A stretch of 64,000 nucleotides of DNA, taken from contig NC_057754.1 in NCBI RefSeq assembly GCF_004010195.1, positions 9,737,700 to 9,801,699 on the forward strand, in the 5' to 3' direction. Positions 5,054-5,953 of this stretch are shown here, piece after piece (the stretch's first letter is position 1; each line of letters starts with the position of its first letter). Below the pieces are notes generated by a model, which saw only the letters and a program-made list of their open reading frames with translations, made no database searches and was not told the origin of the DNA. The DNA comes from Chiloscyllium plagiosum (taxonomy: Eukaryota). Both the position numbers and the translations under genes were made by a program.

Positions 5054-5463
5054 TTATAGCCAGTTGACCAGAGTTCAGTACCAGCATATTCCAGGGAGGA
5101 TGAAAGATATTGTAGCTGCATAAGACTTCAGTTAGGCCACATTTGGTGTATGTTCTGGTCGCCACATTACAGGAAGGATAGAGAGAGTGCAAAAGTGGTT
5201 TACCAAGATGTTATCTCGTTTGGGGTGTATTAGCTATAAGGCCATGTTGGGCAAGCTTGGATTGTTTTTGCTAGAGCATCGGAGGCCATGGGGTGACCTT
5301 AATAGAAGTACATAAAGTTATGAGGGGTATGGATTGGGTGGATAGTCAGTCTGTTTCCCAGGATGGAAACCAAATGTAGGTTTAAGGTGAGAGGGGGAAA
5401 GTTTAAAGGAGATGTGCAAAAATGTTTCTTTAACAGAGGGTGGTAGGTGGCTGGAATATGCTG

Positions 5464-5740
5464 AAACTTTATTGCTGGAACAGCACAGCAGGTCAGGCAG
5501 CATCCAGGGAACAGGAGATTCGACGTTTCGGGCACAGGCCCTTCTTCAGGAATGAGCAGAGAGTGTTCAGCAGGAGAAGATATCTTCTCCTGCTGAACAC
5601 TCTCTGCTCATTCCTGAAGAAGGGCCTGTGCCCGAAACGTCGAATCTCCTGTTCCCTGGATGCTGCCTGACCTGCTGTGCTGTTCCAGCAATAAAGTTTC
5701 AACTTTGATCTCCAGCATCTGCAGACCTCACTTTCTCCCC
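5464..5740. mobile_element. PLE-derived fold-back insertion (perfect 240-bp palindrome 5462-5701) with 15-bp TSD
   Basis: Palindrome centred on gatatc (5581/5582); TSD ggctggaatatgctg at 5449-5463 and 5741-5755. Confidence 0.92.
5610..5645 (+). ncRNA. Minimal type I hammerhead ribozyme (PLE family A); mirror copy on the minus strand at 5518-5553
   Basis: ATTC-CTGAAGA-A-GGGC(ctgt)GCCC-GAAA-CG-TC-GAAT: stem I ATTC/GAAT, CUGANGA and GAAA cores, stem II, palindromic ACGT helix III, GUC cleavage triplet ending at 5641. Confidence 0.8.
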
Positions 5741-5953
5741 GGCTGGAATATGCTGTCAGAGGGAGATGGTAGAAGCAGATACGATAGCAATGTTTAAGAG
5801 TCATTTAGACAGACACAAGGACAGGCAGAAAATGGAGGAATATGGACTACATGCATATTAGTTTGGAATGATGGTTGGTCGACGCAGACACAGTGAACTA
5901 AAGGCCTGTTCCTGTGATGTATTGTTCAATGATGACGCAGGAGGCTTCTTGAC

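What the first reader, a model, noticed from the sequence alone, without database searches (positions are those of the whole stretch)
5449..5755. Perfect 240-bp palindrome placing an intact hammerhead ribozyme on each strand
Seen: 5462-5701 is a loop-less perfect palindrome flanked by a perfect 15-bp TSD inside a CR1 3' end, so it is a young insertion. Each arm holds ATTC-CTGAAGA-A-GGGC..GCCC-GAAA-CG-TC-GAAT. Established: Penelope-like elements carry minimal type I hammerheads with palindromic helix III that can act as dimers. Inference: a transcript of either polarity contains the ribozyme and its antisense. It could either self-cleave or collapse into a 120-bp dsRNA hairpin (Dicer/ADAR substrate); the DNA could form a cruciform.
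Basis: partly seen in the sequence, partly recalled or inferred. Interest (0 to 1): 0.75.

Follow-up and report, generated by a model that had tools for sequence, protein, structure and literature searches.

The report
Truncated Penelope jumping-gene insertion, shark
The 240-base mirror sequence is real, but it is the short head-to-head stump that Penelope-like jumping genes commonly leave when they insert, and its ribozyme is predicted to be locked shut by the mirror half, so it is most likely an ordinary inert relic.

Summary
In detail: an exact 120+120 bp palindrome (5462-5701), a 15/15 target-site duplication, a LINE relic as host, and a complete minimal type I hammerhead motif in each arm. 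Inverted tail-less arm + forward arm + 30-40 nt tail + TSD is the published insertion unit of endonuclease-positive Penelope-like elements (PLEs). Five of nine insertions of this family in the window share it, one with PLE reverse-transcriptase fragments (83-92% to a Chiloscyllium protein); a second family shows it too. Contigs from two further samples support the outer junctions; the centre was not seen. In read-through RNA of either polarity the antisense arm comes first and the hairpin (-268 kcal/mol) is predicted to leave the ribozyme helices unformed; the single motif is dimer-dependent anyway. Rfam finds no hammerhead. No RNA read lay on the unique flanks (2% of one run). 'Young' is only relative. 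This scan has reported the same kind of element twice elsewhere in this genome. Verdict: new member of a known kind, low interest; useful only as a clean footprint of PLE integration.

The parts
5449..5463 (+). Left copy of the 15-bp target-site duplication; its last two bases (TG) also belong to the palindrome
5462..5581 (-). Inverted, 5'-truncated, tail-less copy of the PLE pseudo-LTR end
5518..5553 (-). Minimal type I hammerhead motif on the minus strand (C3 at 5549; predicted cut after 5522)
5582..5701 (+). Forward 5'-truncated copy of the PLE pseudo-LTR end
5610..5645 (+). Minimal type I hammerhead motif: 4-bp helix I, intact core, unpaired A between 9 and 10.1, 4-bp helix II, palindromic ACGU at 15.1-16.1, predicted cut after C5641
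   Evidence: feature list from PMC4209133
5702..5740 (+). One-sided PLE 'tail': 37 nt to the family 3' end at 5738, plus two extra C
   Evidence: family-wide loose ends at 5738
5741..5755 (+). Right copy of the 15-bp target-site duplication
5150..5463 (+). Host: decayed LINE ORF2 3' end left of the insertion (CR1-type by recall)
5756..5860 (+). Host: continuation of the LINE ORF2 3' end right of the insertion
   Evidence: skip joints 5416-5762
33200..34478 (.). Sister insertion of the same family: inverted arm, PLE ORF fragments (N-terminal, DKG region, YIDD and thumb), forward arm, tail, TSD; ties the family to a PLE protein
37826..38064 (.). Sister palindromic insertion, arms 82/84 identical, 36-nt tail, TSD 14/15, centre inside the hammerhead core

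Best explanation
This is a 277-bp, 5'-truncated insertion of a Penelope-like retroelement family into an old LINE copy, made of an inverted tail-less arm, a forward arm with a 37-39 nt tail and a 15-bp target-site duplication, and it is most likely an inert by-product of integration. Shown: the anatomy, the family link, the hammerhead motif. Inferred mechanism: the element's GIY-YIG endonuclease nicked both target strands 15 nt apart; each 3' end primed a cDNA, one from the tail end (5738) and one from the internal start site (5699-5701, helped by a TG microhomology); both stopped at the same template position (5582), upstream of the uncut ribozyme, and the two ends were joined head to head. 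The hammerhead is simply the part of the pseudo-LTR that lies within 130 nt of the 3' end. In read-through RNA of either polarity it is predicted to be zipped up by the antisense arm, so it would not cleave. I put identity as a PLE stump at about 0.93, lack of a selected function at about 0.9, and the two-primer route at about 0.55 among routes.
For: Same layout in 5 of 9 insertions of this family in the window (5.4k, 17.0k, 33.2k, 37.2k, 37.8k; hits, ends), tail-less arms ending in register, tails 32-39 nt, centres differing between copies. Three insertions of a second family show it too, tails 35-38 nt. The 33.2k sister holds ORF pieces 83-92% identical to a 654-aa RT protein, whose relatives carry RT plus GIY-YIG. 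Published: inverted 5'-truncated copy plus 30-40 bp one-sided tail (PMC8557442); inverted pLTR, tail, TSD and palindromes at the inverted junction (PMC3846280); opposite-strand hammerhead pairs 100-700 bp apart (PMC4209133); both strands cut and extended, two RT start sites bounding the tail, uncut RNA the main template (PMC11167929). Family-wide arm-to-arm joints and a common 3' end at 5738 in contigs of three runs. Hairpin -267.9 kcal/mol versus -7.7 for the motif alone.
Against: The loop-less centre was not seen in any listed contig or read (24 pieces shown, 73,989 not). The native sequence upstream of 5582 was not recovered (one search found nothing), so two-primer and fold-back routes are not separated. 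This is the only insertion among 15 regions scored with a fully intact core, 4-bp helix I and palindrome in both arms, and its helix I is better than the commonest family variant (A5644 is T in about 60% of depth). Lack of function rests on 2% of one RNA run and on folding models.
Confidence: 0.85

Rival explanations
1. Same PLE stump, but built by fold-back: one cDNA primed at the tail end stops at 5582, self-primes, copies itself back, and the endonuclease resolves the intermediate 37-39 nt short of the end. This differs from the best explanation only in the route (about 0.35 among routes).
For: Arkhipova et al. read palindromes at inverted junctions as self-priming (PMC3846280); Craig et al. 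ascribe the tail to endonuclease resolution (PMC8557442). Inner ends of the two arms lie within about 0-20 nt of each other in most copies.
Against: A zero-loop centre needs a native self-complementary stretch of about 8-10 nt; paralogous subfamilies are pyrimidine-rich there, with only a TA step (inference). The tail-less arm ends where an in vitro PLE has its second RT start site (PMC11167929), and TSD ends match the cDNA at that point in 3 of 4 copies checked (2 nt, 6 of 7 nt, 1 nt, none).
Confidence: 0.33
2. The palindrome is transcribed in a read-through or 3' UTR RNA and acts as a 120-bp dsRNA substrate for ADAR or Dicer with an effect on the host transcript or on family silencing.
For: Predicted perfect hairpin. 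A C2H2 zinc-finger exon on the minus strand ends at 7980, 2.2 kb away, and each arm holds AATAAA. Family RNA exists: 1,420 reads laid, with 12 A>G places against 6, 6 and 7 in the other three runs.
Against: RNA depth is 0 on the flanks 5181-5366 and 5832-6050 (about 2% of one single-cell polyA run). Two minus-strand AATAAA sites (7440, 6743) lie between the exon and the palindrome. The A>G-bearing reads at 5637 carry at least 2 other differences, so they come from paralogues, and no DNA of the same individual was laid.
Confidence: 0.07
3. A self-propagating non-autonomous palindromic element (MITE-like or retrozyme-like) that moves as a unit.
For: Some arm-to-arm joints have summed depth of hundreds to 1,264 against about 4 on the flanks in run X2, which could mean repeated identical centres.
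Against: Centres differ among all palindromic copies in the window; single-arm copies with TSD exist (38.9k); 592 different joints were found; no tandem hammerhead repeats as retrozymes require (bioRxiv 10.64898/2026.07.22.740005).
Confidence: 0.05
4. The perfect palindrome is an assembly or polishing artefact.
For: 100% arm identity is higher than in any sister copy (80-98%); the centre was not seen in independent data.
Against: A TSD encloses the whole unit; the asymmetry matches the PLE tail; a 101-nt contig of run X5 spans 5391-5492 (0 other letters, 1 gap) and a 72-nt contig of run X2 spans 5719-5790 (exact), from different samples and studies. The X5 piece reaches only 29 nt into the arm, just under the tool's 31-letter bar for bridging.
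Confidence: 0.03

Closest known systems
Insertion unit of endonuclease-positive Penelope-like elements: inverted 5'-truncated pLTR, 30-40 bp tail, TSD (PMC8557442; PMC3846280)
   Same: Head-to-head inverted copy lacking the tail, forward copy with a 37-39 nt tail, TSD around the unit, insertion into another retrotransposon, palindrome at the junction.
   Different: Extremely short (no ORF left), arms of equal length with no loop, TSD of 15 bp against 8-10 bp in the rotifer examples; a shark family that my searches did not find described.
Minimal type I hammerheads of metazoan PLEs (PMC4209133; review PMC6765202)
   Same: Intact core, 4-bp helix I, unpaired base between 9 and 10.1, G10.1-C11.1, palindromic 15.2-16.2, no helix III loop; opposite-strand pairs were already noted in Schistosoma.
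   Different: Helix II is 4 bp rather than 7-8 bp as in the Schistosoma families; activity not tested here; here it is masked by its own antisense.
Poseidon element PAc of Anolis, studied in vitro (PMC11167929)
   Same: Tail bounded by two fixed end points; 5' truncation upstream of the ribozyme cut site fits use of uncut RNA.
   Different: The shark family's protein relatives have a Cys-rich linker before the endonuclease, which points to Neptune or Nematis rather than Poseidon; clade not tested by a tree.
Non-LTR retrozymes (bioRxiv 10.64898/2026.07.22.740005)
   Same: Non-coding, PLE-related, type I hammerhead.
   Different: Retrozymes are head-to-tail tandem repeats with two same-strand ribozymes; this is head-to-head with one per strand.

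Membership tests
EN+ Penelope-like element insertion | pLTR linked to an ORF with PLE-type RT | tested here: met
   Met at family level, not in this copy: sister 33200-34478 has the same arms around pieces 83-92% identical to RT protein P0004.
EN+ Penelope-like element insertion | C-terminal GIY-YIG endonuclease in the same ORF | tested here: inconclusive
   Present in relatives P0072 (Pfam GIY-YIG E 5e-4, below cut-off) and by eye in P0003; a GIY-YIG-region piece lies at 165-233 next to a family arm at 88-171; deleted from the 33.2k sister.
EN+ Penelope-like element insertion | Inverted 5'-truncated copy adjacent to the 5' end | tested here: met
EN+ Penelope-like element insertion | 30-40 bp tail on one end only | tested here: met
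   5702-5738/5740
EN+ Penelope-like element insertion | Target-site duplication | tested here: met
   15/15
Neptune clade of PLEs | Zn-finger-like motif between RT and EN, and RT phylogeny | tested here: inconclusive
   Cys motif seen by eye in P0003, P0072, P0086; no tree built, Nematis not excluded.
Minimal type I hammerhead of PLEs | Core CUGANGA / GAAA / UH, helices I and II, base between 9 and 10.1, palindromic 15.2-16.2 | tested here: met
   the palindrome is ACGU in this family and AGCU in the second family, with different helices I and II
Minimal type I hammerhead of PLEs | Self-cleavage, as dimer or with protein help | not testable with these tools
   Modelled dimer -14.3 kcal/mol against -15.4 for two monomers and -19.5 for an alternative dimer; no pile of RNA ends listed, a library that could not show them well.
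Rfam hammerhead families | Covariance-model match | tested here: not met
   No hammerhead family among hits (E up to 10) or 52 (gathering).
Non-LTR retrozyme | Head-to-tail tandem units, two same-strand hammerheads | tested here: not met
   One motif per strand, head to head; no direct repeat of the unit within 4500-6800.
MITE | Symmetric terminal inverted repeats abutting both TSD copies and a shared internal structure (definition recalled) | tested here: not met
   39-nt one-sided tail; centres differ among copies.
microRNA precursor | Rfam family score and processed small RNA | tested here: not met
   All miRNA hits are below gathering score and reflect the hairpin alone; no small-RNA data examined.

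The most novel reading that the evidence does not exclude
Shark Penelope palindromes are fossil snapshots of a two-primer integration step in which both target strands prime cDNA on templates held together by the dimer-forming hammerhead, with synthesis usually stalling at or just upstream of the ribozyme. The ribozyme would then act as an RNA dimerisation and stop signal rather than as a cutter, and the very many shark copies would let PLE integration be mapped genome-wide. Leads: equal-length arms here; in 9 of the 13 arm-to-arm joints listed both arms begin at 5610-5629 and none at the cut site, though the 90% likeness filter biases this.
Probability: 0.15. Interest if true: 0.5.

Novelty: new member of a known kind. 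Interest (0 to 1): 0.12.

Why it matters
As a locus it matters little: it is one of very many relics. It is an unusually clean example (perfect arms, TSD, tail, intact motif) of how Penelope-like elements integrate, a mechanism still only partly resolved in vitro, and a ready construct for testing a shark minimal hammerhead. If such palindromes are widely transcribed they could be a sizeable source of endogenous double-stranded RNA in sharks, but nothing here shows that.

Tried and rejected
Rfam: no hammerhead match in three searches; miRNA hits rejected as generic hairpin scores. Whole-genome search: no genome held, so no census of copies. Exact-motif scan of metagenome contigs: 0 hits. Sequencing runs: no RNA holder listed. 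Organism B contigs reach the left flank up to 5448 and the right flank from 5784 but show neither an empty nor a filled site, so the insertion is not dated. Pfam found nothing useful in the five short PLE fragments. ARAGORN found no tRNA in 4500-8000. Editing signal: A>G at 5637 in 23 of 264 RNA reads against under 0.2% of depth in the three contig runs was set aside because the reads come from paralogues. Summed contig depth (about 1e6 on the arms against 4-11 on the flanks) shows a very abundant family but is not a copy number. Lunse et al. on dimeric PLE hammerheads is not held and is cited only through the review PMC6765202. Literature searches for a shark PLE hammerhead or palindrome family found nothing relevant (two supplements of PMC4209133 searched, one not searchable); subscription papers and Repbase or Dfam were not searchable, so absence from print is not shown. 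No covariance model and no RT tree were built.

Full report
1. Observation. The palindrome is exact: arms 5462-5581 and 5582-5701, 120 nt each, no loop. No other perfect arm in the window exceeds 19 nt. GGCTGGAATATGCTG is duplicated at 5449-5463 and 5741-5755; in 200 random window pairs 3 scored 10 or more and 1 scored 15 or more. The hammerhead motif is as described, C3 at 5614 (+) and 5549 (-), cut predicted after C5641. These are the only two hits of a strict descriptor in the window, against 0 in 60 simulated 64-kb sequences. Rfam does not recognise it. Both flanks match the C-terminal end of LINE ORF2 from other window copies, and paralogous contigs skip 5416-5762; 'CR1' is my recalled label.

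2. What it is. The forward arm plus tail has 13 further blastn hits in the window: 11 resolve into eight more insertions of the same family and two belong to a more distant palindrome at 10.8k. Of the nine family insertions, five have an inverted tail-less arm plus a tail-bearing arm inside a TSD: 5.4k (15/15), 17.0k (19/20), 33.2k (11/11, 13/14 by eye), 37.2k (14/15) and 37.8k (14/15). One is a single arm with tail and a 14-bp TSD (38.9k), three are single arms without tail. The tail-less arms end in register at the equivalent of 5699-5702, tails are 32-39 nt, and the centres differ from copy to copy. The 33.2k copy encloses ORF pieces 83-92% identical to a 654-aa reverse transcriptase annotated from Chiloscyllium punctatum, including the DKG, YIDD and thumb regions; relatives carry a C-terminal GIY-YIG region after a Cys-rich linker. 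The host is therefore a shark by resemblance, and the family an endonuclease-positive PLE, probably Neptune-type (no tree built). A second family shows the same layout in the three copies I examined (24.3k, 39.1k, 50.6k; tails 35-38 nt); these were picked by an inverted-repeat search, so they give no frequency. Its hammerhead has different helices and AGCU where this family has ACGU, so the palindrome at 15.1-16.1 is kept while the letters change.

3. Independent data. I laid 5150-6050 on 4 of the 24 runs listed. A 101-nt contig of X5 spans 5391-5492 (0 other letters, 1 gap; 29 nt into the arm) and a 72-nt contig of X2 spans 5719-5790 exactly; these are different samples and studies, at about single-copy depth. 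No listed piece spans the centre (24 shown, 73,989 not). Depth on the arms is about five orders of magnitude above the flanks (not a copy number). Loose ends pile at 5738 in all four runs, the family 3' end. Of 592 joints 15 are shown; 13 are arm-to-arm or arm-to-tail, i.e. other copies with other centres, and in 9 of these both arms begin at 5610-5629, none at the cut site; the 90% filter biases this. In the RNA run (about 2% read, single-cell polyA) 1,420 reads lay on the family, depth on the flanks 5181-5366 and 5832-6050 was 0, and no pile of ends was listed. This neither shows nor excludes transcription of the locus.

4. Age. Zero differences in 135 bp bound divergence below 2.2%. At the epaulette-shark rate of 7e-10 per generation (PMC10587355, passages) that allows up to 1.6e7 generations. 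The copy is the best preserved of those compared (sister arms 80-98%), so young relative to them, but it is shared between samples and not shown to be recent.

5. How it works. Published work describes this layout: an inverted 5'-truncated copy next to the 5' end and a 30-40 bp tail on one end (PMC8557442, passages); inverted pLTR, tail, TSD and palindromes at the inverted junction (PMC3846280, passages and Discussion); minimal hammerheads on opposite strands 100-700 bp apart, attributed to truncated PLEs (PMC4209133, Results and Discussion). In vitro a PLE protein cuts and extends both target strands, starts reverse transcription at two sites that bound the tail, and mostly uses uncut RNA (PMC11167929, parts 1-2 of 4). 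Here each arm reads as a cDNA leading away from its TSD copy, one from the tail end and one from the internal site. I infer two primed cDNAs that stopped at the same template position and were joined end to end. TSD ends match the cDNA at the internal start by 2 nt here, 6 of 7 nt at 33.2k, 1 nt at 37.8k and 0 at 17.0k, which is weak support. Fold-back self-priming, the reading in PMC3846280, remains a serious rival; a zero-loop centre fits it less well unless the native pLTR is palindromic there, which I could not check. Truncation 60 nt upstream of the cut site means the template was uncut at this ribozyme.

6. The ribozyme in this locus. The 5462-5701 stretch reads identically on both strands, so in either polarity the antisense arm is made first. 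The full RNA folds at -267.9 kcal/mol, the motif alone at -7.7. Helix I and II probabilities are 0.000 for transcripts starting at 5400, 5449 or 5500; helix I rises above 0.2 only for some starts at 5555 or later. The motif lacks a monomeric helix III, a single minimal hammerhead showed no cleavage and dimers little (PMC4209133), and the modelled active dimer is no more stable than two monomers. Self-cleavage is therefore unlikely for read-through RNA. A dsRNA hairpin would form if the locus were transcribed; a zinc-finger exon ends 2.2 kb away on the minus strand, with two AATAAA sites in between. Cruciform extrusion was not tested.

7. Novelty. Known architecture, known motif class. I found no description of this shark family (supplements, one file not searchable), but repeat databases and subscription papers were out of reach. 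Other papers seen: PMC6765202 and PMC6155905 (passages), bioRxiv 10.64898/2026.07.22.740005 (part 1 of 5 and passages). Two earlier notes of this scan describe the same kind of element elsewhere in this genome; they agree with the reading I had already recorded and are not independent evidence. One of them names PMC3846280, which my own search returned in the same turn.

8. Verdict. Real, ordinary, probably inert: new member of a known kind, interest 0.12.

Noticed in passing
window 50557-52508: Larger insertion of the second PLE family: 12-bp TSD, inverted arms of about 680 bp (94% identical), 36-nt tail, a GIY-YIG-region fragment at 51563-51733.
   Followed up: partly
window 24250-24480 and 39121-39373: Small palindromic insertions of the second family with the tail on the left; hammerhead with AGCU palindrome and 3-bp helix I, core intact in the minus arm at 39251.
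   Followed up: partly
window 10790-10988: Older palindrome (84% arm identity) of a third, more distant family; no clear TSD or tail.
   Followed up: partly
window 33200-34478: Rearranged PLE copy: forward N-terminal ORF piece, 312-nt assembly gap, inverted DKG piece, forward YIDD-thumb piece fused directly to the pLTR.
   Followed up: partly
window 5690-5695 (+) and 5468-5473 (-): Each arm carries AATAAA, a feature of this subfamily; other window copies have different letters there.
   Followed up: no
window 5449-5463 versus 5702-5718: The target site resembles the reverse complement of the tail start (GCTGGA plus TG), which may have helped priming; could be chance.
   Followed up: partly
window 5637 and 5708, RNA run X21: A>G in 23 of 264 and 229 of 553 RNA reads against 0.07-0.2% and 3-21% of depth in the three contig runs; one expressed paralogue or editing of family hairpins, not separable.
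   Followed up: no
window 4727-5050: A 324-bp SINE-like repeat with five near full-length relatives in the window at 73-78%; resembles the shark HE1 SINE by recall.
   Followed up: partly
window 7980-8645 and 47890-48852 (minus): C2H2 zinc-finger array exons; the window looks like part of a zinc-finger gene cluster in repeat-rich DNA.
   Followed up: no
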